From positions 44,578,001-44,642,000 of the forward strand of contig NC_059426.1 in NCBI RefSeq assembly GCF_021028975.2: DNA of 64,000 bases, read 5' to 3'. Source of the DNA: Sphaerodactylus townsendi (taxonomy: Eukaryota). The position numbers and the translations under genes are program-made. This document shows, one piece after another, positions 421 to 62,452 of the stretch. The stretch's first letter is position 1. Every line of letters starts with the position of its first letter. The notes beneath the pieces were generated by a model. It was given only the letters and a program-made list of their open reading frames with translations, did no database searches and had not been told where the DNA came from.

Positions 421-1326
421 AAAGGTCAAAGAATTATGGGTTTAAAAATAGGAGAAGAATTCAAGATAAAGACCTTGACAGTTATGCAGGTGCCTTCATT
501 GTGTGTTTTGTGATGTTTATAGAGTTACTGGATTTTGATAGCACTTCATGAAAATGTGCCTCATGCATTTTTGCTAGGTTGACAGAAGTTAGACAATAAC
601 CTGCAACTTCCGCTTAACCTGTTGTCAGTTTTCAAGTGTCAGGCTTAATTTGTGCTAAATGTCTTTGGATAGCAAAGCAACAGCTATGAGTAAAGACACC
701 CATAGTAATCTCACTGTGTTTATTTGCATGTGTCTTCAAACAGTTACACTAATTCAAAATGAACAGCGCTCATTTATATTAATTGTGACCCTGTGGTGTA
801 AGGTGATGTTGCGCATTATTTGAAAAGCCACAGTATGTTTTGTGACATCATCATGACATGATGTAAAACATCATGTGACAGGTTATATTGCCCAGATGCC
901 AGTACATCTTGCATCAAAATCCTGAAAACGTCTTTTGTCAGAATACTAATTACCTTATAGCTTGGGTGTATGGTGTTCATTCTTTTCATCTTGGGGAAAT
1001 GAAGTAAGAAGAATAAAACAATATCCCTTCTACTGTTTCCCATGTCTAATATTATTAGGTGAATCATTTGTTTAATGGAATGAGGTTTCAAACCAACTGT
1101 GCACAGAATTCTCGCAATGCGGTCTGCTTGTTCTAACCATTCAGTTAGGCTAGGTAGCATTTTCACAGAAGGAAAAAAATCCACATTTACTGTTCTAAGT
1201 TGTTTTGGGGAGCTAGAGACAAACAGTATGGGAGCCCTTCCATGAAGTATTTATGGAGAGAAACCTTGGTCAGGTCCCTGCCTGGTATTCAGAATGTGTT
1301 CAGTTCAATCTGTGATATCACTCGTT

Positions 1327-1459
1327 CAGGGGTCTGCAACCTGCGGCTCTCCAGATGTTCATGGACTACAAATCCCATCAGCCCCTGCCAGCATGGCAAA
1401 TTGGCTGATGGAAATTGTAGTCCATGAACATCTGGAGAGCTGCAGGTTGCAGAGCCCTG
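1327..1459. mobile_element. Palindromic hAT-type MITE (~133 bp)
   Basis: TIR CAGGGGTCTGCAACCTGCGGCTCTCCAG / CTGGAGAGCTGCAGGTTGCAGAGCCCTG; whole element folds back; degenerate 8-bp TSD cactcgtt/aactagtt. Confidence 0.85.
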
Positions 1460-1494
1460 AACTAGTTAATGGAGCTTTGATGACAGATGTTTTG

Positions 1495-2880: not shown

Positions 2881-3944
2881 TCTGGAGTATCACCGCCATC
2901 TGAGACAACAATACTGGTAGGCCAATGGTCTGCCTTGTAAGGCAGTTCCATATGTTCATCAAACAAAACTGAAATTGTATAATACTACAGGGTATAAGAG
3001 GTTTAGAGAAGTCACAACTGGTGTCCATAAGTGAATAGGCTGAGAGGCCACAATATAGCAGCTGTAATTAGAACACTAATTTTCAGGATGTATTACAGAG
3101 CATACGGTGGTGCAATTCAATGAGCCAAAGCATACCTTGGAAAACAGCACCATCCAACTCAGAATGTATTGATTTCAATGGATTTAGAATTCAATGGATT
3201 TAGAATGGATTCTTTGAATTGCACTGTAAGGGACTTCATCTTAGATTTATCTTCTCTGATGGAAGGCCCAGTGCAAGATTGATTCCCATCCCTTTCTGTG
3301 ACATCATATGTTCAGTGGCATCATAAGTGACTCGTGACTCGAGTGTTGGTACTGGAGAAGTGACTAAAAAGAAGGGATAATTAATTGCTTAGCTATTCCC
3401 CACCCGTAAATTCCTCAACCTAAATCACTCTTTTTCCTTCTCTGTATCAAAATATTGCTTTAAATAATCTGGTGGAATATTTCTGATGGCTCTTCAGCCA
3501 CATGAGGCCAAATTGTTGGACTGTCCAAGGCAAAGACATGATCCATGCAATGAAGTGGCAGAGCAACCTTAACAGCTCAAACTGAGGGACAGAACACTCA
3601 TGCGATAGTCATGAAGTAGATCGTTATTGACTCTGGCAGTTTCCATGTAGTAGTCACTGTCCAGAATCAAAATTATTATAAAGTGTATGATGAACAGGAT
3701 TAGGCCAGAGTTGAGACCCTTCCCCATCCTCAAGTATTTGCAGAACAGTCAATTAATAATCCTCAGGGAGTTTTTCCATATGCTGAAAAACTATGTTTTT
3801 TCTCACAGCATTGAAAATAATGCTCTGAAGGGAAGAGTAATCATTAGACTTGTTTCTTTTGTTATTCATTATAGTACTTACGAAAACAGGGTTGTAATTA
3901 TTGTCGTTAATATAAAGATGACACAAATTCCCTTTCTAAACCTT

Positions 3945-4170
3945 CAGAAGCCAAACAGGTGGTGACTAGAGACAGGACATTTTCTGTGGTGGCATCTTGC
4001 CTCTGGAATGCTCTTCCCCCTGAAACTCACCTAGAGCCTCCTTTATTTTCTTTTAGGCACCAAGACAAAATGTATCTTTTCTACCCAGACTTTCAATGGT
4101 TTTTTAAAAAAATCTTAATTGGGGTTTTTATCTTATCAGCTTTTTAATGGTCTGTTTCTGTTTTATGAAT
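3945..4170 (+). mobile_element. L2 LINE 3' fragment (ORF2 C-terminus and start of 3' UTR)
   Basis: TRDRTFSVVASCLWNALPPETHLEPPLFSFRHQDKMYLF matches the L2 C-terminal motif RAFSV.AP.LWN.LP...R.....FR...KT.LF. Confidence 0.85.
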
Positions 4171-4172
4171 AA

Positions 4173-4216
4173 CTAGCAATAAAGCACATTGTGTGAAAAA
4201 ATACAACGGGCTCTAG
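4173..4216 (-). mobile_element. Helitron-like 3' terminus (subterminal hairpin plus CTAG|T)
   Basis: Minus strand reads ctag-agcccgttgt-attttttcac-acaatgtgct-ttattg-CTAG|T: an imperfect 10-bp stem (8/10) ~10 nt before a CTAG end followed by T. Confidence 0.55.
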
Positions 4217-4265
4217 AAAACTAATTCTCTGATGACAAGAGATGTGAATGAGGCATATCCACAGG

Positions 4266-4778
4266 AATGTCCTCTCTAGTTCCCACTTACAGGTTCCCAC
4301 TTGCTAGAACCCACTATATTTTTTTCATACAACAGGCTCCTCATCTTCACAGGCACCCTGCGGGCTCTCCCCCACAGTAGGGATTCAGCTTTACGAACAG
4401 AGGGTGCCTATGGACAGGGGGACAACTCTCCATATTTTCACAGGCACCCTGATGCTCCCCTTTGCAAAGCTGGGATGCAGCTTTGCAAATGGCACGTGCC
4501 TATGAAGATGGGGAGATCTCTCCCCATCTTCACAAGCACTATGCTGCCCCTCTTTGGCAAAGTTGGGATGTTTGCACTGCAAAGGGGAGCACCAGGGTGC
4601 CTGTGAAAATATGGAGAGTTGTCCCCCTGTCCATAGGCACCCTCTGTTCGTAAAGCTGAATCCCTACTGTGGGGGAGAGTCCGCAGGGTGCCTGTGAAGA
4701 TGAGGAGCCTGTTGTATGAAAAAAATATAGTGGGTTCTAGCAAGTGGGAACCTGTAAGTGGGAACTAGAGAGGACATT
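4266..4778. repeat. Long near-perfect inverted repeat (palindrome)
   Basis: 4266-4466 is the reverse complement of 4578-4778 with 2 mismatches. Mirror ORFs 4301(+) and 4743(-) give near-identical N-terminal peptides. Inner 14-bp stem at 4503-4516/4519-4532. Confidence 0.97.
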
Positions 4779-4968
4779 GCCACCTTTTCCTTCTGTTCTC
4801 CCCTTCTTTTCTGCCTCTCACTCTCCATCCTGCCATCTCTTCTCTTAATATTCTCTATTTTTGTCCCACTACCTCAACTCTCTTTCCTATCCGCAACTCC
4901 AGCTCTCAGTTCCACTACCCCAGCTCTATTTTTAACTTTCTGCCTGGCTACCCCAGCTCTGACTTTCT

Positions 4969-5109
4969 GGCTCATTCCACACATGCAGAATAATGCACTT
5001 TCAAACTGCTTTCAGTGCTCTTTGAAGCTGTGCAGAATGGCAAAATCCACTTGCAAACAGTTGTGAAAGTGGTTTGAAAACGCATTATTTTGCGTGTGCA
5101 GAAGGGGCC
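4969..5109. mobile_element. PIF/Harbinger-type MITE (141 bp, palindromic)
   Basis: TIR GGCTCATTCCACACATGCAGAATAATGC / GCATTATTTTGCGTGTGCAGAAGGGGCC; 3-bp TSD tct/tct. Confidence 0.8.
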
Positions 5110-6374
5110 TCTCTGTCTTTCTGCCCTGTTACCCCCAACTGTTTCTGCCTTAAGAAGTGTTACTGGTGATTTTTGCTCCTGTCCCCTCCCCCCATTTACA
5201 GCTGGCATACTACCAGACATACCCACACATCCTGTAAAACCCACAACAGCCAATTGTTGTTGTTGCTGTTGTCATTAAGAGGAACTGAAGGCTAAGGAAG
5301 CACATTTCTATACAGCTAATGGTGAGGTAGTTTTGCATCCATCCTTCCCACAGAATTGGAGATACCAAACCTTGGGGGTAAGGATGGGTAAAGGTGTTGT
5401 GTTCAGTCAATAAAGTGGCTTAGTGTACAAGGTCATTCTTTCCTACAATATCTAGAAATGGTTTAAAAACATGAACAAATTGTTAAAATAAATATGTGTC
5501 TTTTGAAAGGGAATTTCAGGGTTTTATAACTACTTTAAATATTTTTCACTAGTGAAGTACTGCTTGCCTTGACCAACAAATATTTGTACTGCTGCTACAG
5601 TTGTGATTGCAATGAAAGAATCTTCTGCAGAGTCTGAGCTGATGTTTTCAATCATCGCCTTTTTGTGGGTTAATAAGATTGGAGGATACAGGCTGAGTGT
5701 GTGTTGCCGAGCTCTCATAGATGTCCCAAAGCCCTGGCTTCACCAGGCAAATGAGAAAGGTTTTAATTTAAGGTTTGATTTAAAGGAGAGACACTTTTTC
5801 ATTAGTGTAGCAGTTACCCACTCAGTTGGGAGCCATTGGAAGAAATTAAAGTACATTTGGCAATCTATATGCTTCATGTGGGAGTGAAATCTATCTTTCT
5901 ATTTATCTACCTATCTGTCTAATCATCTAAATGCCATGGCATTGAGTGGTAAATTTACCTTTCTCTAAACTTTTGCAAAATTTGTCTATAAATCCATTAG
6001 AATGAAGACAGCTGTAATTCATTGTTAGCTGCTCCATCGACCCTCCACTTCAGTCAGCAACTTCCATTTACATTTTCACAAAGCTAATTCCTTTGTCCAT
6101 GAAATAGACCAATTTCCCTTTTCACTGTTTCAAATACACCTGAAGCAACTGTTTGGGATGGTCTGTATTTATTCAGACTGACAACAGGCTTTACACACAT
6201 AACTGCATGGAGTGATTCCTCTTCGGCAAGTGTGAGGATGAGCCTGCTTAATTATCCTCTTCATTTTTGAGGATTTCTGTGGAAGATTTAGATAAATATA
6301 GTTAAGCTCATTTGTAAAAGTATTGGTAGCTGCCACCAGCAATGCTGGTTCCTGGATTCTGGATCCTGGTTGAA

Positions 6375-6490
6375 TGTTAAGCTGAGATAATGTCTGGACC
6401 AAGGTCACCCAGGGAACTTCCATATGAGAGTGGGGATTCATACCTTGGGATTCCTAGATCCGACACTTTAACCACCCCACCAAACTGACT
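6375..6490 (-). mobile_element. tRNA-derived SINE (Squam2/MIR-like)
   Basis: ccaaggtcacccag...gagtggggattcatacc...actttaaccac...accaaactg is the reverse complement of a SINE head and core. Confidence 0.6.
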
Positions 6491-6536
6491 TCCTTGGGGA
6501 CCATGCAGTAAAACCAGAGTATGCAACTCCAAGCCA

Positions 6537-6715
6537 GAAAGCCAGCATGGTCTAGTGGTCAGAGTGTTGAATTCAAATTCCCACTCTACTATGAAAACTT
6601 ACTGGGTGACTTTGGACCCATCACTTACTCTCACCCTGGTCAACTTTGCAAGACTGTTGTGATTATAAAACAGAGGAGAAGAGAACAATGTATGCTGCTT
6701 TGAGTCCCTACTGGA
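6537..6715 (+). mobile_element. tRNA-derived SINE (Squam2/MIR-like)
   Basis: agccagcatggtctagtggtcagagtgttg...ttcaaattcccactct...ctgggtgactttgg...ctgctttgagtcc. Confidence 0.6.
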
Positions 6716-6824
6716 TTCTTCCCTTTTAAATTCCTACTTTTTTGCAGTTGGAAAGTGGAATTTGGACACTAAACAGTTCTGTTCCACTAATTAGGGACTC
6801 AACTGGTTTCAGAACATTATCAAA

Positions 6825-7524
6825 GGGCGAATTCCCACTGCTTCCTTAGCACGGTTTCGGGCCACTTACTAACACGGTTTCATCGACGTCCTCCCCATGA
6901 CTTCTGTGGCAGCAACCGTTTCTGACGCTCGTTCGCCCTGTTAATCTGCATTCTGGCAGAACCTGGATGCAAGTGGTTCAGGCCCCGTTATCACAGGTTA
7001 CAGCTGTTCCGAGGGGAGGAACAAGGTTTGGAACCTGGAGTTGTTCCCTGCCCCAGAGCGTGACGTGCATTTCACGCAGCCAATCAGATTGATTTGACCC
7101 TTGCGCAGTCTACTTCCGGGTTGATGGAACGATCACGTTTCTGAGCATGTGCAATACAAGTAAACGGTCGCCTGGTAACCGATTTAACGGTAAAACTTTC
7201 AGAAAATAGTTGCTTTACTGTAAAATGTGACAAGTATTCATAGTGGATTTGCACTAAAGCGTTAAGCACAGGTTTTTTAATGGGTAAAAGTGGGTAGTGT
7301 TTCTGGAAATTGTGGCTAACAAGGTCCGCCCAACTGAACACTGACCAATCAGATTAGGGCAATGAAGCGCAATCACATGGCTGTGGGGATTGCAACGATG
7401 CCTGCACCCGGGAGTGTCTGCTGTGTGCTCGCTGTGGTGGGGAGGGAGAAACTGCGACGAGGAGAACACGGATTCACAAGGAACAGGTTTGGATCCGCTT
7501 GCAATTTCAAGTGGGGATTCGCCC
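6825..7524. mobile_element. PIF/Harbinger-type non-autonomous element (700 bp)
   Basis: TIR GGGCGAATTCCCACT / AGTGGGGATTCGCCC; aaa on both flanks (3-bp TSD); CpG-rich interior. Confidence 0.75.
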
Positions 7525-8139
7525 AAAATAGCATCTGCCTTGCAGACTCTCACCAGAAGCTTACTTATATCCTATAAAACTTACTCTCTTAATCTTTGGG
7601 TATGACACTTGCTCCAAGTTATACCCTTTTGCACCTTCCTTAGTGCCCAGTCTAGTCACAGGATGGTAGTGGTGATGTGCATTTCTGTAGGTGATGTGCA
7701 TTTCTGTTTGGTGGTGGAGATGAATCTTCTCAGGAGTGTGTTCTTTCCTCCTCCAGCAGGGAGAATGTTTGTGCAAACATGCCAGTTCTGCATGCATTGA
7801 TGCAGAAAATCAAATATACTAAAATATTAGTTTAGTTTTTTATTTAACAAATTTCCAGATGTACACATCCTGATCTTGTGGTGACAGAGTTGTAAGCTGA
7901 AGCATATACATGATCAACACTATGATGTCTTCCTAGGATTCAAGTTGATCCCTCCAATCCAGGCAGCACATTTGACTTCCCCTGATCTGGCAAAGCTACA
8001 AATATTTCTGGGATAGCATTGGTTGGGCAATAGTCAGCATTCCTGTGGACTTCTTAGCAACTAGACACACCTTCTAAGATCCTGTCTGGTCATGTGTTCT
8101 TCGGCATGATTGGAAGCTATTTAAATGCTCACTGTGTAC

Positions 8140-8275
8140 AACTGCAGTTCACATAAAACATATGCCACAATTTAGGAAAGATACCATCAAAACGAAGAGG
8201 ACACTAGCCTGGTTAATCAGTAAAGTCAAAAAGGCCATAAAAGGTAATAACCCTTCATTTAAAAGTAAAACATTA
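8140..8275 (+). mobile_element. CR1 LINE ORF2 fragment
   Basis: MPQFRKDTIKTKRTLAWLISKVKKAIKGNNPSFK resembles the CR1 EN-RT linker IP..RK...K.KR.P.WL...VK.AI. Confidence 0.6.
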
Positions 8276-8299
8276 AGGAGCATAAATGTATGTCAGTGG

Positions 8300-8591
8300 C
8301 AGTGGTGGAGCTACAAGGGGATGGTGTGTGTGTGTGTGCATTGCACCATGTGCGGGCCTGGGGTGTGTGAAAATCACCCCCTGCCCCCACTGCCCCACCT
8401 GGCCAGGCCTGACCCCACCTCACTAGCCTGGCCTGTTTTCAGCTGGCAGAAAGCTGTTTTCTGCCAGCTGGAAAAGGTAAGTGGGGGGGCTGCGGGGGAG
8501 AGGGCAGGGCCATGGAGGAAGCGGGCAGGACCACAGGGGGCAGAAAACACGGAGTGAGCCTCGGGCGCACTCCTGTCCAGCTATGCTTCTG
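8300..8591. mobile_element. hAT-type MITE
   Basis: Ends CAGTGGTGGAGCT / AGCTATGCTTCTG; exact 8-bp TSD GTCAGTGG (8292-8299, 8592-8599). Confidence 0.85.
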
Positions 8592-8686
8592 GTCAGTGGT
8601 AATGCTGTCATGGACAGCCAAATGAAAAGGTTGACTGCTGTGATAGAATTTATAATTTCAAGATGTTCTTTTATGTTAATCTAGTG

Positions 8687-8820
8687 CATAGGTGTCAAAC
8701 TTGTGGCCCTCCAGATGTTATGGACTACAGTTCCCATCACCCCTGCCAGCACCATGCTGGCAGGGGATGATGGGAACTGTAGTCCATAACATCTGGAGGG
8801 CCGCGAGTTCGACACCTGTG
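8687..8820. mobile_element. Palindromic hAT-type MITE (134 bp), related to 1327-1459
   Basis: TIR CATAGGTGTCAAACT / AGTTCGACACCTGTG; exact 8-bp TSD ATCTAGTG; shares the core ccagatgttatggactaca..tcccatca with 1327-1459. Confidence 0.92.
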
Positions 8821-9798
8821 ATCTAGTGTGTTAATTTGAAAACTTAGTATGTTAATTTGAAGGCCACATGTTCACAAAGGCAGTTCAGTTAGGTGAGAGT
8901 GCTTGCCTGAACCTGCTGGAGTGTCTTCTTAGATCAAATATTGTACTACCAATTCTGAACTAGTCATCCTTTTGGTCTCTCCTTTTGGAATCCAGAAACA
9001 TTACATTGACTAATTTGGAAAAGGCAAATGCTATGCTAGAGTACAAAATTCTCAGTATTAGAATGTTCTTGTTTGGATTTATAATTCACCCACATTTGAA
9101 ATATTGTCTCTGCCATCACACTGTAGAATGGAGAAAAGGTGTATTCACTCGAGGAAAAGGACAACTAAAAAACAAGGTGTTGGAGTATTTTACCTACATT
9201 CATGTTGGAATAAGCGACTTCTGCATGCCTGGACACTGGGGGGTGCTGTGCATCTCACTCTAACTGTGATGTTGCCTCTCTTGTTTGCCCTCCTTGTCTG
9301 GGCCAGGAGACCACCCACTAACTTCCTTTCTTTTCCATTCTGGTTTCACCTCTGCCCTAGCCTTTGACCTGAGCACATGGTCAATGGCAGCCTGCTCAGT
9401 GGGGCTTTCCCACTGTAGCATTCTCTCACTTCCACACATGTGATGGCGCGGTGCCCACTTGTTCATAGGGAAAGTAATCTCTTTAGACTAGGGTTTCTTT
9501 CTATCTACCTTTTTCCTGGAACAAAGCTGTGAACTGGAGATGCTTGAATAAATGTAAGTTTTACCTTTTACATTTATCTCTTGAGAAGTTTCTATAAACT
9601 GCACTCACACACACTACTGGGCAGATCCATGATTCTAAACTAAATCTAACAAATCATTGGCTTAAACGTTTTGAACATTTTTTTTTCACTTTAGAGAAGA
9701 AATGGCTAAGGTGGAGTACAGCATGGAGTAGAGAAAGTGGATGAGAAACAACTTTTTTCTTTATGCCAAATATGAGGATACCCAGTGAAATGTACAGA

Positions 9799-18815: not shown

Positions 18816-19307
18816 GGCTGTTTCTGCATGGCCAGCTGAGCGGGGTGCATCAGCATAGCTTATGCCGATGCACCCCCCAGGACCATTCGCATGGACGGTC
18901 CCACTGGCTGCACAGGCTGAGCCACCACCAAATGGTTCTTACCTTCTGCCGCCTTCTGTCGCGTTGTGGAGTTCAGGGGACACGCCACCATGGCCAGAGC
19001 GATGGCTCTGGGGTCGGAGGGCCAGGAGGCGTGTCCCCTGGCTTCCACAAAGTGACAAAAGGCGGCAGAAGGTAAGAGACGTTTGGGAGGGCTGCGGGGA
19101 AAATGCTGACTTTCACCTGGTGCCGTTAGCTCAGCACCAAATGGAAGCTGGCATTTTCCAAAGCAAGGTTCAAAAACTCTGTTTCAGGTGGGAGGGGGGA
19201 AGAGCACTGCTGCATTGATTTGGCAGTGGCACCTATGCAAAGGGTCCCCCCCAAAAGGGTGTTTTACCGGGCCGAAATCAACTATTTTGGCCCATGCGGA
19301 AACAGCC
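18816..19307. mobile_element. PIF/Harbinger-type MITE (GGCYGTTTCYGCA family)
   Basis: TIR GGCTGTTTCTGCATGG / CCATGCGGAAACAGCC; internal ggcgtgtcccctggc motif shared with 25442 and 51562. Confidence 0.8.
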
Positions 19308-25441: not shown

Positions 25442-25896
25442 GGCCGTTTCTGCACCGCCACACTTGGGGGGTGCGTCAGCGTATACGACGCCAACGCATC
25501 TCCCCGGGACCGTTTGCAGAAACAGTCCCGGTAGTGGCGGGGAAGATAGCGCAGCGCTGTGCCGTCACCCGAACGCCTTATCTTCCCTCCGACCTTCCGG
25601 AGCGTCGCCCAGGAGTCGCAGGGCAGGGGGCGTGTCCCCAGGCCTGGACAACGCGCCGGAAGGTCGGAGGGAAGGTAAGGCGTTCGGGAAAGGGGAGCGA
25701 TGGCAGCGATTAAAAGCCACTGTTTTCGAAATGCCTCGCCCAGGGAGTGAGGTTCGGAAACAGCGGCTTCATGCCGCTCGGGGGTTGCGAGGCCGCCGCT
25801 GCTGTGATACAGCAGTGGCGGCCGTGCAAACCCCTCCCCAGGGACGCTGTTTTTAGCATCCCTAGGTCGCTGTATTCCGCCCGTGCGGAAACAGCC
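25442..25896. mobile_element. PIF/Harbinger-type MITE with internal GC-rich fold-back
   Basis: TIR GGCCGTTTCTGCAC / GTGCGGAAACAGCC; internal arms cccgaacgccttatcttccctccgaccttccgg / ccggaaggtcggagggaaggtaaggcgttcggg. Confidence 0.85.
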
Positions 25897-45705: not shown

Positions 45706-45949
45706 ATTCTACCCTACTACTTCAACACATGTATGATACTAGAAGTTAAGCCAACTGTAGTAAACAATACAGCGGGCTCTAAACAGCTATTGTTGGCAGG
45801 CACAGCAACAATGCAATATATAGTTTCCCCTCCTTTTTATTTTAGAAGATGTGTCTTCAAATCTTCATAGACTCGATATGAGAACCCTGTTGATTCTCAT
45901 GCCAAGTCTGTGAAGCTTCTAAGACATGTCCTCTAACATTAAAAAAGGG

Positions 45950-46430
45950 ACTGATCCTGAATGCTGGACTGAGCACACTCTCCTTCCCCCACCTCTCGTC
46001 CCAAGGCCCGCAGCTCTTGGGAAGGGAAGGGGGCATGAAACTGCAGCTGGACTGAACAGTCTCAGTCCAGCACCCAGGATCAGGTTTTCCTCCAGTCCCC
46101 CCCACTTCTTATCCCAAGGCCAGCAGCTCTTAAGAAGGGACGTGGTGAGCACAATTCTGCATGCTGGACTGTGTGCACTTACATCAACACCAAGGATCAT
46201 GCTCTCCTTTCCCCCACCTCTCATCCCAAGGCCCTCAGCTCTTGGGAAGGGGGTTTAGGGGCATGATAGTGAGTGTTTGACTGAGCACGCTCCATTCAGC
46301 ACCTAAAATAGGACTCTCCTTTTCCCCCACCTCATATCCTAAGGCCCGCAGCTCTTGGGAAGGGTGGTGGGGGCATGATCCTGCATGCTGGACTGAACAC
46401 ATGCTCAGACCAGCACCCAGACCTTCATTT
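45950..46430. repeat. Tandem array, ~113-bp unit, about 4 copies
   Basis: Anchor cc(c/t)aaggcc..cagctcttgggaaggg at 46000, 46113, 46225 and 46338. Confidence 0.85.
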
Positions 46431-48681
46431 TTAAGGAGGGGGGGGGGTGCAACTCCATCCAAAACAGTGAATTATCCATTTTCTGAGAAAAGATGCTGAA
46501 TTAGGTGGTCCACTGGTCTGATCCAGCAAGGCTTTTCTTATATTCTTAAGTCTTACTTCAGCAATTAAGCTAACCTTTGACCAATCACATGCCCACAACT
46601 TAACATACCTCGCAGGTCTGCAGAGAAAATAAAAAACAGAGAAAATCACACAGGCTGATTTGAATTTGTTGGAGGAACAGCAAGGTTAAAAAAAATGTTA
46701 AATACATATCTATTTACAGTAGTGTTAATTTAAGATCTGGATTTTGGTATTTTAGTGGATCTTGTTGGACAGATCCACAAGATATGGATCTTGTTGGACA
46801 GCTACTGTGAAGCCAAGAACTAGGAGGCGGCCTCTTCAGATTGGTGAACAAACCTTATTCAGAAGCTCTGTAGAGACCAGGAATATCACCTGACTTACTC
46901 TGTTCCATTGATGTAAGGATGTTTTCTTAGCTTGTTCAGCTAACTTCCTCTCCCTTTAGTCCTCTATATAGTCTTTCCTGGAAGCACGCAGGCAGAATCC
47001 TTGTCTCCCATTCCTGAGGTCTTCAGTTTAAGATGTGTTGCCAGGCAGTCTCTAAACTAGAACCTATCCTGAGTTCTTGAATTTTTAAGGAAAGCAAATT
47101 TTGCATTAGCAGAGGGAACATGTTTGATTACCATCAATGCTTTTTTTTCAAATGACATGAGTTTGACAATTCTCTAAGATTTCCCAGTTTTATCTGCTTT
47201 AAATCCAGATCTTTTTGTTCTCCAGCAAATATTAATGAGACAGTGATTTTGGTTAAGCATTTTCTCGGGGTATATAGATACTGGTTCTTTTTTGTACCAT
47301 ATTTCATTGATACTAATTGGAAGCAAATAACCTTCCTGATGTGTAAATATCAAGAAACACGGCATACCTTTTATTCTTCTTCCCCTTGAACAACAGTTTT
47401 CATAAAGGAGGAGGCCTTAAAGTCCAACCTGAAGATTGTTGGGAAGCTGAGCTATACCTAAGTACTAAAAACTACCAATGCCTGAAAACAAGAAGTATTC
47501 CGAATTTTGATCTTCTGTGGTCTCAACTGGCAAGAAACAAGATTATATTAATTTTAGAAAGTATGAGCTTTGGGCACTGACTTTCATTGGCTAAGATGTT
47601 AATATTTTATGGGAGCCTAAAGCATGCCCAATTAAAGCAAGATCAGAAACATCCACAAGTATATTCAAAGACAAGCATTGCAGTTTTCGACAGCACCATA
47701 AATTCATATGCCAAAAAAGCTACAGCAAAATAACATTAAGGCCCTGGCAAGGGGGGAAGAGGGCCAAAAATGTCATTTCTTTGTACTCCGCCAAGCCCTG
47801 TGGTATGCTGAAAAAGCATTGCCACTAATCTCATAAAAAAAGAAAATTACTGCCAGAAAGGCACAGGAACAACAGATGCAAAACTGGCTGAGAACACCTG
47901 GGTAAAAAAAAAAAGGGCAGGCCTAAGTGTTGAATCTTCACACTTTTTGCTGGTGATAAACTAAATTTCTTGCTCTCTCCTGCCTTTCTGGCTCTCAGCG
48001 GTAGCAAAATTACTTAACTTTGACTTAATTAAAGGTCAAACAGGTAAGTGGAGAAAACAGAAATATCTTCCTGCCCTTCCAAGTCATCTCCTCAGTGCAA
48101 CTTCAGCTGGTTTATCACAGACTAACCTCTTTTTGTGATTACCTGTCTCCAGTGCTCTCTTTGGCCTTGGTCTGTCTATCACCAGTTGCTGGATTCCCTC
48201 CTCCCTTGTCCTTTCAGATAACTCTTTTCTCATCTTAATTTATGGAGGTCTAACACTCTTAGAAAGTTAAGCTGTTTCCAAAGACCAGTAAGTAAGTATG
48301 GACGGAGGAGGTGGTATACACTCAAGGTACTGAAAAATATATAGCTGCAAATATTTATGCTAGAGTTGTGCTGCTAAAACCATTGTGTACTGCAAGTTTT
48401 TCTCTCTCTTTCTTAGTGGTTCCATGAAGTTTGGAAATTAACAGGCCTCTAATATGAATTTCTCAATGTTTAATTTATAATCAAAAATGATGCGTCTTTG
48501 AGATTGTGTATCATATTTGTATATGCAAAGTTGGAATTTACCACATCAGTCTGCCAAGCCAATAGGTGCTGTGGGTTCATGCTCAGGATTACATTAACTC
48601 CTTGCTGGATCTCAATAAAGCAGTCTTAGTTGGTAAAGCTGACTTGCGCTTTTTTATTTTTTTGAAAATGTAAATATTACT

Positions 48682-48830
48682 GGGGCCCTGGTTAGTAATC
48701 CAGTGGAAGACTACACAGGGATACCAGGGTTGTTATGTAGAGGAGGTCAATGGCAAACCATCCACGTTGGTCTCTTGCCTTGAAAATCCTATGGGGTTGT
48801 GTGGGTTGGCTGTCACAACAACACTTCATG
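48682..48830 (+). mobile_element. 5S/Sauria-type SINE fragment
   Basis: ccctggttagta...ggaagac..ggatacca (5S-like) followed by aatggcaaacca...tcttgccttgaaaatcctatgggg (Sauria/BovB-like tail). Confidence 0.65.
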
Positions 48831-50234
48831 CACAAATGCTACTGGTGGTTCTGCTCCTTCCTCTTCCATGATTCATGATGGCACATGGGGGACGGTAGGC
48901 AAAAGTCAGACCTCTCTTCTTTCCAGTTATTGAACTACAATGGAAAATAGGAAAGGAAGGAAATTCTCTGTGGTCAGAACTGTACCGACTTCCTGTATTG
49001 GGGTCCATCAAGCCATGATCTGGACAAAACTGATGCCTATGGGTTCTTGGTTTTAAATTCTAATGTGTCTTCTTACCAGCATGTAAGAAATGTGTCTGAG
49101 ATACTTGGAACAAGTACAAAAGTGAAGTAGCTGTACCATGTCTCATCAGCCAGTTTACTCTCATGTAGAGAATGAAAAAGATAAAAAACGATGTATACTA
49201 AAGCAAAAATTTGGGCTATTTTCAAGTGACTATCACAGCTTAAATACTACTTTAGCCTCTCTGGTCTCATAGGTTATAATTTCCTGTTATCTGGGTAAGG
49301 ATGTTTTAAACAGCTTTTTGTAGATGATTAGGTATTTGCTGATCATTCAGGACAATTTACAAAGATAAATATATGTTAAATGGTTTTCTTGTTAAACCCA
49401 ATGTAGAAGTAACCCCTCGAGGCCAGCTAGTAATTACTCCTAATAACAAATTAAAGCATTACCTACTTCTTTTTCCGTTTTTCATTTTGAAGGGGAAATT
49501 ACCTTACAGAACTGAACACACTCAAAACTGCAGATTCATAATTTTTTGATAAAAACCGCTTATTTCTTCTTTTTTAGCAACTGAAGGCAAAAGAATGAGC
49601 ATATTGAAAGGGATGGGCTACATACCTTTTATTTTTGCACTCTATTCAACTTCTAATGACCTTATGAAGAAGCCACTGGTATGGTTATCCAAGAGTGGAA
49701 AGGTTGAGTGCACTGAAAAGGGAGAGAAAATAAATCAATTATTATGTTTGTGCCGGGGTGGGGGGAATGTAAAGGAATAAAATGATATTTTTAAAAAACA
49801 AAAAAAGTTTAGTACTGATTTAAAATTGAAGTTGGATGCTGGGAACCTATTTAAACTAAACTGACGGTCGTATTTCTTAATGGAATTCTATTTGGGCTTT
49901 TCATTCCTGTACCACTGTACATATTGGATTTTACATTCCTGTTACCATTGCACATATCAGAACTGGCAATCCCTACTAAGTACACATAACAGATTAGGTT
50001 CTTTGATACCACTGTGGTAACACCCTGATAAGTATTTCCATTCTACCAGGAGGTAAAAAAAATCCTCAGCTAATCTAGGTCCCAAGTTACTAGATTATTT
50101 CCAGTGGTCAGGCACATTTGTCTATTAACCTGCACCATTCATAAATGGTGCCTCAGAAACCCCATGCAGAGAAACATTCCCTCGTCATCAAATTATACCA
50201 CTTTCTGAGGCAAAATCTCCTAAGGTTTAAGATA

Positions 50235-61966: not shown

Positions 61967-62452
61967 GGCTGTTTCTGCATTACCCCAAAACAGCACTCTT
62001 GGGACGGTAAAAACATCATCCCTGGGGCACTGTTTGCACAGCTGCCGTGCTCACCCCTCCGAAATGGCAGGAAAACGCTGTTTTCAAAACTCGCTCAATG
62101 AATGAGTTTTTTGGAAAGTGGCGTCTTCCCACTGGTGCCATGCGAAGCACTGCTGTGAGGGCGCTGCTTTTAGCCGCTTCCGGTTTGTTGTTTGTACCTA
62201 CCTTTTCTCCTGCGAAGCTCTGGATGGAGGAAAGTTGGAGGGCAGTGTGGGTGTGTCCCTTCGTCTGTCCAAAATTTCACAGGGAGAAAAGGTAGGTACA
62301 CAACAAACTGGAGGCAGCTCCATGTGGAGCCGCCCCTGCAGGCCACATCAACATTGGGACAGCCCACACGGGACTTTGCGATTGGTCCCGAGACTCCACT
62401 GGCATAAATTATGTCGGTGGCCAGCTGCTTCTGGTGCTGTGCAGAGACAACC
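61967..62452. mobile_element. PIF/Harbinger-type MITE
   Basis: TIR GGCTGTTTCTGCA / TGCAGAGACAACC; TSD tca/tca. Confidence 0.78.

What the first reader, a model, noticed from the sequence alone, without database searches (positions are those of the whole stretch)
4173..4740. Three copies of a Helitron-like terminator hairpin: one at a CTAG|T end and two inside the palindrome arms
Seen: 4183-4216 (agcacattgtgtgaaaaaatacaacgggctctag) aligns with 4706-4740 (agcctgttgtatgaaaaaaatatagtgggttctag), and its mirror lies at 4305-4339. Most differences are transitions consistent with CpG decay of a GCCCGTTGT...ACAACGGGC stem, and both arms carry identical changes. Established: Helitrons end in a hairpin ~10-15 nt before CTRR, insert before T and move by rolling-circle replication. 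Inference: the palindrome was made from an already decayed Helitron end, possibly by terminator bypass or fold-back during rolling-circle replication. That would be a route from a Helitron to a palindromic, MITE-like element.
Basis: partly seen in the sequence, partly recalled or inferred. Interest (0 to 1): 0.7.

Follow-up and report, generated by a model that had tools for sequence, protein, structure and literature searches.

The report
Recent palindrome inside an old Helitron
The hairpins are real ends of a common rolling-circle jumping gene (Helitron) in reptile-like DNA, but the 513-base mirror repeat around two of them is seen only at this one spot and likely arose as a recent DNA-copying slip long after the element landed, so it is not a new kind of mobile element.

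Summary
Copy A is a canonical Helitron 3' end on the minus strand. In three genomes 180-193 contigs each stop sharply at its CTAG|T, against unrelated flanks. A second copy in the window ends the same way (45738).

Copy B is a decayed internal hairpin. Other family copies carry it collinear with a 92-bp unit, a tail and the body, and they run straight through the arm's outer end at 4778. The arm ends are therefore not element ends, and there is no TSD.

The arms differ by 1%, against about 15% for family copies. Two close relatives lack the second arm, and one shows the spacer in the opposite orientation. One template switch in the chromosome (known type 1-3-4-2/3-1-2-4), primed between self-complementary 92-bp units, explains both arms and the flipped spacer.

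Fold-back during rolling-circle transposition and a Helitron-to-MITE route are not supported. Terminator bypass plausibly explains the internal hairpin only. The 5' TC end and the empty site were not found. This is ordinary biology with a well-dated example.

The parts
4172..4216 (-). Copy A: Helitron 3' terminus. 10-bp stem (4183-4192 / 4203-4212, 10-nt loop), 6-nt spacer, CTAG (4176-4173), target T at 4172
   Evidence: Sequence. Loose ends before 4171/4172 in 180 of 1500 (X21), 189 of 1495 (X22) and 193 of 1611 (X23) laid contigs, flank agreement only 0.40-0.42
4217..4265 (-). Element body next to the terminus; its last 12 nt resemble the start of a 92-bp unit that is cut off at the left arm
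   Evidence: Paralog X1 record 4 matches 4172-4267 with 16 differences, then diverges. 10/12 match to the U1 start; 94 of 3000 random 12-mers do as well, so weak
4266..4466 (.). Left arm: inferred new inverted copy of 4578-4778
   Evidence: 2 of 201 mismatches. Family copies continue from the tail into 4779+, not into 4265
4304..4338 (+). Copy C: mirror of hairpin B inside the left arm, no CTAG end after it
   Evidence: 35/35
4337..4707 (.). Array of about four self-complementary ~92-bp units (U1 4337-4427, U2 4428-4519, U3 4520-4616, mirror of U1 4617-4707), a high-copy minisatellite unit
   Evidence: 73% unit identity. U2 folds with z = -4.75, U3 z = -2.4, U1 z = 0.1. High contig depth and tandem joints
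4467..4577 (.). 111-nt spacer, inferred to be inverted relative to the ancestral allele. Junction 4466|4467 restores the unit core; junction 4577|4578 carries an extra 5 nt
   Evidence: Organism E joins 4467 to the arm that runs into the RIGHT flank (X22 record 20 = record 13)
4578..4778 (.). Right arm, at the original position: half of a unit, mirror of U1, hairpin B, 38-nt tail
   Evidence: 11 of the 16 pieces listed for X22/X23 are paralogs bridging 4778 by 31 letters or more on both sides
4706..4740 (-). Copy B: decayed internal terminator-like hairpin, followed by the unit array instead of CTAG
   Evidence: 6 of 16 listed X22/X23 pieces start at or before 4685 and reach 4805 or further
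4779..5136 (-). Pyrimidine-rich element body, interrupted by a MITE; its far (5' TC) end was not found
   Evidence: Paralog cover to 4960; their loose letters behind 4960 resemble 4961-4968 plus 5113-5136
4969..5109 (.). Unrelated 141-bp palindromic MITE inserted in the body with a flush 3-bp duplication (TCT)
   Evidence: (I3)
45738..45790 (-). Second family copy in the window with the same CTAG|T end and hairpin
   Evidence: 73% over 52 nt; best non-self score in the window scan

Best explanation
An old, high-copy, likely non-autonomous Helitron ends here on the minus strand in a hairpin plus CTAG|T, and a recent one-off polymerase template switch in the chromosome likely copied 201 bases of its interior backwards, making the palindrome and flipping the spacer. 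Shown: the family end at 4172; hairpin B collinear with unit, tail and body in other copies; arms 1% apart; a single arm with the opposite spacer orientation in organism E; no spacer-to-right-arm junction in organism F. Inferred step 1: B is an older terminator that lost its CTAG and became internal when the family gained the unit array and a new end A (read-through, or insertion next to another copy). Inferred step 2: the ancestral allele was left flank + about 20 nt + inverted spacer + arm + right flank. Inferred step 3: a nascent strand stopped in the hairpin core of one 92-bp unit, re-primed on the matching core of the next unit on the opposite strand about 111 nt away, copied about 312 nt (spacer, then arm) backwards, and returned at 4265. 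This is the four-point type 3-1-2-4/1-3-4-2. Timing: after the split from F, about the time of the split from E. The palindrome probably does nothing.
For: Family boundary at CTAG|T in X21, X22, X23 and X1, and 2 of 4 contigs laid from distant organism C carry the same end in front of the hairpin. Stem ends 10-11 nt before the 3' end, as in Helraiser (11 nt; PMC4778049 passages). Family runs through 4778: 11 of 16 listed pieces, and no row at 4778 among the six loose-end rows per run. Age: 2/201 between arms, against a pooled 15.1% (13-19%) for 15 listed paralog pieces; expected 30 mismatches, P(<=2) = 3e-12. Organism E (0.85% from the window in the flank): three overlapping contigs give left flank to 4067, inverted spacer, one arm identical to the window's left arm, right flank (X22 records 16, 17, 20; record 13); the deletion joint has 3 nt of microhomology. 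Organism F (2.7%): record 30 matches 4460-4576 exactly, fails at 4577, and its depth is not in the sum at 4395. Type 1-3-4-2/3-1-2-4 gives exactly an inverted repeat with an inverted spacer and was 23% of 794 filtered human-chimp events (PMC5453318 section 6).
Against: No contig showing the intact ancestral allele was displayed. E carries its own deletion, and F's state is deduced from what record 30 does not match, since its other 83 letters were not shown. Contig depth does not count arms: X21 shows single-copy depth on the arm although the window has two. The pieces listed are the longest, so they lean towards collinear copies (791 pieces not shown, 6601). About 312 nt is long for the short-range model, whose paper speaks of clusters of tens of bases. 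The two junctions are imprecise (extra 5 nt; at most 2-3 nt of inferred microhomology). The left junction 4265|4266 was not seen in a listed contig. No 5' TC end, transposase or empty site was found.
Confidence: 0.72

Rival explanations
1. Same recent, locus-specific origin, but by break repair or in two steps: cleavage of a unit hairpin followed by microhomology-mediated synthesis, or a plain fold-back followed by a spacer flip between the arms. E would then come from the palindrome by a flip plus deletion of one arm.
For: The window's junction (4577) and E's breakpoint (4568) lie 9 nt apart in the core of unit U3. The junctions are imprecise. E's arm equals the window's left arm (0 of 221), so the order of duplication and D-E split is not resolved.
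Against: Needs more events than one switch. F also joins 4467 to the arm and lacks the 4577|4578 junction.
Confidence: 0.14
2. One reading: the palindrome arose by fold-back or terminator bypass during rolling-circle transposition and is the start of a MITE-like family, its arms kept alike by conversion.
For: It lies within 50 nt of a Helitron terminus. Helitrons pass through single-stranded circles and can bypass their ends (PMC4778049 passages).
Against: The arms share locus-specific decay and differ by 1% against 15%. E and F lack the second arm junction. The unique middle of the arm is covered only by the orthologous contig in X21 (4395) and in X22 and X23 (4651-4661). The arm ends are not family ends, and there is no TSD.
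Confidence: 0.05
3. The palindrome is an assembly or library artefact (the window has three N gaps, so it is a scaffolded assembly).
For: The left junction was not displayed in any contig. X21 may be the window's own sample. Whole-contig fold-backs do occur in public data (L001).
Against: X21 record 14 bridges 4577|4578 (118 and 201 letters), carries both right-arm variants and ends exactly at the arm end, where E's contig runs on. X1, from another study, has an arm piece whose inner 67 letters do not continue into 4467. The arms differ at 2 sites.
Confidence: 0.06
4. The 513-bp palindrome is a TIR (cut-and-paste) element inserted into the Helitron.
For: Long inverted arms; other palindromic MITEs occur in the window.
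Against: No flush TSD (best 4 nt, offset by 3 and 1). The arm is continuous with the right flank in paralogs and in E.
Confidence: 0.02

Closest known systems
Canonical Helitrons (Helitron1/HLE1), e.g. Helraiser/Helibat1 (PMC4778049; passages and section 12 read)
   Same: Hairpin 10-11 nt before CTAG-3', junction to T; composite elements with de novo 3' ends made by read-through, or by insertion beside another Helitron, are documented in Myotis
   Different: Longer hairpin here (10-bp stem, 10-nt loop). No 5' TC end or RepHel gene identified. The internal hairpin lacks CTAG and is followed by a minisatellite array.
Heli1Xen1 (Xenopus; also Lacertidae, Cordylidae and others) and minisatellite-filled Heli2Xen (PMC12001565; passages read)
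   Same: Reported RTS hairpin CCCGTTA...TAACGGG resembles the stem here (CCCGTTG...CAACGGG); CTAG end; present in lizards; Helitrons largely made of minisatellites are known
   Different: One stem pair differs. No sequence comparison with Heli1Xen1 was possible, so membership is untested. Its supplements (terminal logos) were not looked at.
Four-point template-switch mutation, type 1-3-4-2/3-1-2-4 (Loytynoja and Goldman 2017, PMC5453318; passages and section 6 read)
   Same: One event creates a new inverted repeat with an inverted spacer; little pre-existing homology is needed
   Different: The copied tract here (about 312 nt) is much longer than the clusters that paper targets, and lies in repeat DNA, which that comparison masked; it borders on FoSTeS/MMBIR scale.

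Membership tests
Helitron1 (canonical) | 3' CTRR end, consistent across copies | tested here: met
   180/1500, 189/1495 and 193/1611 laid contigs end at 4171/4172 with unrelated flanks; X1 47/1165 at 4172; second window copy
Helitron1 (canonical) | GC-rich hairpin about 11 nt before the 3' end | tested here: met
   Stem ends 10-11 nt before the end; family letters restore the stem. The window's decayed copy alone folds weakly, z = -1.3
Helitron1 (canonical) | Insertion before T | tested here: met
   Boundary rows are at 4172 and 4171, which include the target base; no 4173 row among the six largest per run
Helitron1 (canonical) | 5' TC start preceded by A | tested here: inconclusive
   No convincing candidate within 4780-9000 or 45800-50000. 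An unrelated 124-nt element in L001 pairs the same stem and CTAG|T with A|TC and a TATA-rich start, which supports the motif class only
Helitron1 (canonical) | No TSD; A|T empty site in a relative | tested here: inconclusive
   No empty-site junction was seen. E has a deletion across the end; B and C gave no orthologous piece on 4640-4965 (17 and 4 contigs laid)
Helitron1 (canonical) | RepHel transposase in an autonomous partner | not testable with these tools
   No genome is held. The 58 window ORFs of 110 aa or more were listed but only one was scanned against Pfam
Heli1Xen1 | At least 80% identity and cover to the family consensus | not testable with these tools
MITE / TIR element (the 513-bp palindrome) | TIR ends coincide with family boundaries | tested here: not met
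   11 of 16 listed X22/X23 pieces are paralogs bridging 4778
MITE / TIR element (the 513-bp palindrome) | Target-site duplication | tested here: not met
   No flush duplication; the control MITE at 4969-5109 shows a flush TCT
MITE / TIR element (the 513-bp palindrome) | Multiple dispersed copies | tested here: not met
   Only the orthologous contig covers the arm's unique middle at 80% likeness or more in X21, X22, X23; contigs show presence, not absence, so rare copies are not excluded
Template switch 1-3-4-2/3-1-2-4 | New inverted repeat plus spacer inverted against the ancestral allele | tested here: met
   E's contigs give the single-arm, opposite-spacer arrangement; F is consistent but only indirectly
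Template switch 1-3-4-2/3-1-2-4 | Arises in one replication event (not repair, not two steps) | not testable with these tools
   End products look alike

The most novel reading that the evidence does not exclude
The self-complementary 92-bp minisatellite carried by this Helitron family is a built-in template-switch hotspot. It repeatedly turns element ends into long palindromes (two rearrangements break within 9 nt of each other here in under about 1% divergence), and some such copies are then re-mobilised. This locus would be a dated birth stage of Helitrons with giant sub-terminal palindromes.
Probability: 0.1. Interest if true: 0.55.

Novelty: new member of a known kind. Interest (0 to 1): 0.24.

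Why it matters
It mostly shows that the finding is ordinary: a non-autonomous Helitron with a nested old terminator, plus a known replication error. Its value is as a well-resolved natural example. The pre-event arrangement can be read from close relatives, so it dates a 201-bp-arm palindrome to long after transposition and separates chromosomal template switching from rolling-circle fold-back. It also points to a high-copy, possibly uncatalogued Helitron family (no Dfam or Repbase check was possible) whose hairpin units could be counted genome-wide as rearrangement hotspots.

Tried and rejected
No whole genome is held, so HelitronScanner-style genome counts were impossible.

Arm-to-arm conversion in F: at first suggested by two X23 contigs sharing 4395 A. 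Rejected, because one has three insertions and only one contig covers the mirror position.

Contig depth as an arm count: rejected (X21 shows single-copy depth with two arms).

Organisms B and C (8% of words): no orthologous piece on 4640-4965; this is a hole, not an empty site.

The exact motif search in the window gave 0 matches. A generic hairpin plus CTRR|T scan passed 7 of 490 sites and missed A and the 45738 copy, which are too decayed.

5' TC search: no convincing candidate.

Metagenome scan: 3 loci. L002 and L003 are the same sequence around the match, followed by a T-run, and look like a prokaryotic terminator or chance match. L001 has two inverted copies of a mini-Helitron, but the whole contig is a fold-back with small indels, so it is not counted as a head-to-head case.

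Rfam: one MIR839 match below the gathering score (112.9 against 200), taken as generic long-hairpin likeness.

The ORF at 819-1250 found nothing in Pfam or PDB.

Paper searches for a described Helitron-to-palindrome or Helitron-to-MITE route: 0 papers, and only general reviews or unrelated papers by their listings (3, 46: 1, 50: 2). The library lacks most subscription papers, so this does not show absence from print.

Earlier-finding look-ups by sequence, long word list and genome gave nothing.

Full report
Setting. The window is eukaryotic, repeat-rich DNA with three N gaps. I judge it reptile-like from recalled repeat motifs; no call names the organism. No whole genome is held, so family evidence comes from public contigs of coded relatives: D (0.94-0.95 of words, may include the window's source), A (flank piece 197/197 identical), E (5 substitutions and 1 gap in 588), F (16 and 1 in 590), B and C (0.08 of words).

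Observation. The three copies are there. 4183-4216 against 4706-4740 has 8 substitutions and 1 gap, better than all 1000 resampled controls. The mirror is 4304-4338. Seven substitutions are transitions but only three are at CpG sites. The decayed copies fold poorly alone. The end that matters is on the minus strand: stem, 6-7 nt, CTAG, T at 4172. The plus-strand CTAGs after the stems are followed by A and C.

Is it a Helitron end? Laying contigs on 3400-4577, the motif has a sharp family boundary. 67+113 of 1500 (X21), 62+127 of 1495 (X22), 62+131 of 1611 (X23) and 47 of 1165 (X1, one row listed) have loose ends before 4171/4172, with AT-rich letters that agree only 0.40-0.42. About 90% of depth has C at 4186, restoring the stem. 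A second copy at 45738 ends alike, and 2 of 4 contigs laid from organism C show the same end before the hairpin. The geometry matches Helraiser (hairpin 11 nt before CTAG, junction to T; PMC4778049 passages), and the stem resembles that reported for Heli1Xen1 (PMC12001565 passages). An unrelated 124-nt element in a metagenome contig pairs the same stem and CTAG|T with an A|TC, TATA-rich start (L001). The element's own 5' end, a transposase and an empty site were not found, so it works like a Helitron1 and meets three of the six membership features listed; the other three stay open.

What is hairpin B? On 4640-4965, paralogs run collinearly from the 92-bp unit through hairpin B and the tail into the pyrimidine-rich body. 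Of the 16 pieces listed for X22 and X23, 6 start at or before 4685 and reach 4805 or beyond (only 2 have 31 or more letters left of 4706), and 11 are paralogs bridging 4778 by 31 or more letters on both sides. These are the longest of 715 laid contigs, so the sample leans to collinear copies. No loose-end row at 4778 is among the six per run, though depth dips there and small indels cluster at 4777-4780. Majority letters restore B towards A. So the internal, CTAG-less hairpin is a family feature and the right arm sits at the original position. Inference: B is an older terminator made internal when the family gained the array and end A. Read-through and insertion beside another Helitron are both documented in bats (PMC4778049 section 12). 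The body continues across a later MITE insertion with a TCT duplication (4969-5109).

When was the palindrome made? The arms differ at 2 of 201 sites, while 15 listed paralog pieces differ from the window by 15.1% pooled. About 30 mismatches would be expected had the arms aged since insertion (P = 3e-12). Conversion could hide age, but relatives argue against it. In E, one 435-nt contig joins spacer position 4467 to an arm identical to the window's left arm and runs on into the RIGHT flank (record 20, record 13). Another joins spacer position 4568 to 4067 on the opposite strand (109 and 106 letters; 3-nt microhomology). E thus has one arm, the spacer reversed, and a deletion that removes copy A. 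In F, one contig joins the arm to 4467 and another matches 4460-4576 exactly, fails at 4577 and is not counted on the arm at 4395; its other 83 letters were not shown, so this is indirect. In D, X21 record 14 bridges 4577|4578, carries both right-arm variants and stops exactly at the arm end. In A (another study) an arm piece does not continue into 4467, as expected of the right arm.

Mechanism. Junction 4466|4467 restores the unit core, 4577|4578 has an extra 5 nt, and 4265|4266 cuts what looks like a unit start (10/12; 94 of 3000 random 12-mers do as well). Taking the ancestral order as left flank, about 20 nt, reversed spacer, arm, right flank, a single switch-and-return gives the window's allele. 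This is the type 1-3-4-2/3-1-2-4 of PMC5453318 (section 6), which creates an inverted repeat with an inverted spacer. The self-complementary units supply priming homology about 111 nt apart. The tract (about 312 nt) is long for that model, and repair-based or two-step routes give the same product. I put 0.72 on one switch, 0.14 on repair or two steps, 0.06 on artefact, 0.05 on transposition-time fold-back and 0.02 on a TIR element. PMC8604942 (search listing only) reports arm homogenisation and spacer inversion by template switching in yeast.

Is it a route to a MITE? Not on this evidence. The arm ends are not family ends, there is no TSD, and only the orthologous contig covers the arm's unique middle in X21, X22 and X23. 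Contigs cannot prove absence. Earlier scan notes describe family-wide giant terminal palindromes in Helitrons of sponge-like DNA (unchecked). This case differs in being single-locus and young, and those notes are not support. My paper searches found no description of a Helitron-to-palindrome route, within a library that lacks most subscription journals.

Verdict. Observation confirmed; interpretation partly supported. A new member of known kinds: a composite non-autonomous Helitron plus a template-switch inverted duplication. Interest 0.24. Novel case (hairpin-unit arrays as hotspots feeding palindromic Helitrons): probability 0.10, interest 0.55.

Noticed in passing
window 4068-4568 (organism E, run X22): E lacks copy A and 4068-4265: a contig joins 4067 to 4568 on the opposite strand with 3 nt of microhomology, 9 nt from the window's own junction at 4577, both in the core of unit U3.
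   Followed up: partly
window 45738-46420: Second family end followed by a different minisatellite (about 112-bp unit, four copies, 45977-46420); the family seems to carry different arrays near its 3' end.
   Followed up: partly
window 4969-5109: 141-bp palindromic MITE with a flush TCT duplication, inserted into the Helitron body.
   Followed up: yes
window 1320-1466, 1760-2009, 6396-6618, 8681-8826, 18928-19086, 25568-25688, 62172-62319: Several other short palindromic, MITE-like elements; 1320-1466 and 8681-8826 are one family (77%).
   Followed up: no
window 3956-4080: Another high-copy repeat fragment just outside the Helitron end, with loose ends at 3956/3958 in all four runs.
   Followed up: no
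L001:2707-2830 and 3355-3474: 124-nt mini-Helitron with A|TC start, the same stem and CTAG|T end, in a metagenome contig that is a fold-back over nearly its whole length (likely an amplification or read artefact).
   Followed up: partly
window 816-1250 (minus): 144-aa open frame with coding-like composition, no Pfam or PDB match; may hold an exon, untested.
   Followed up: partly
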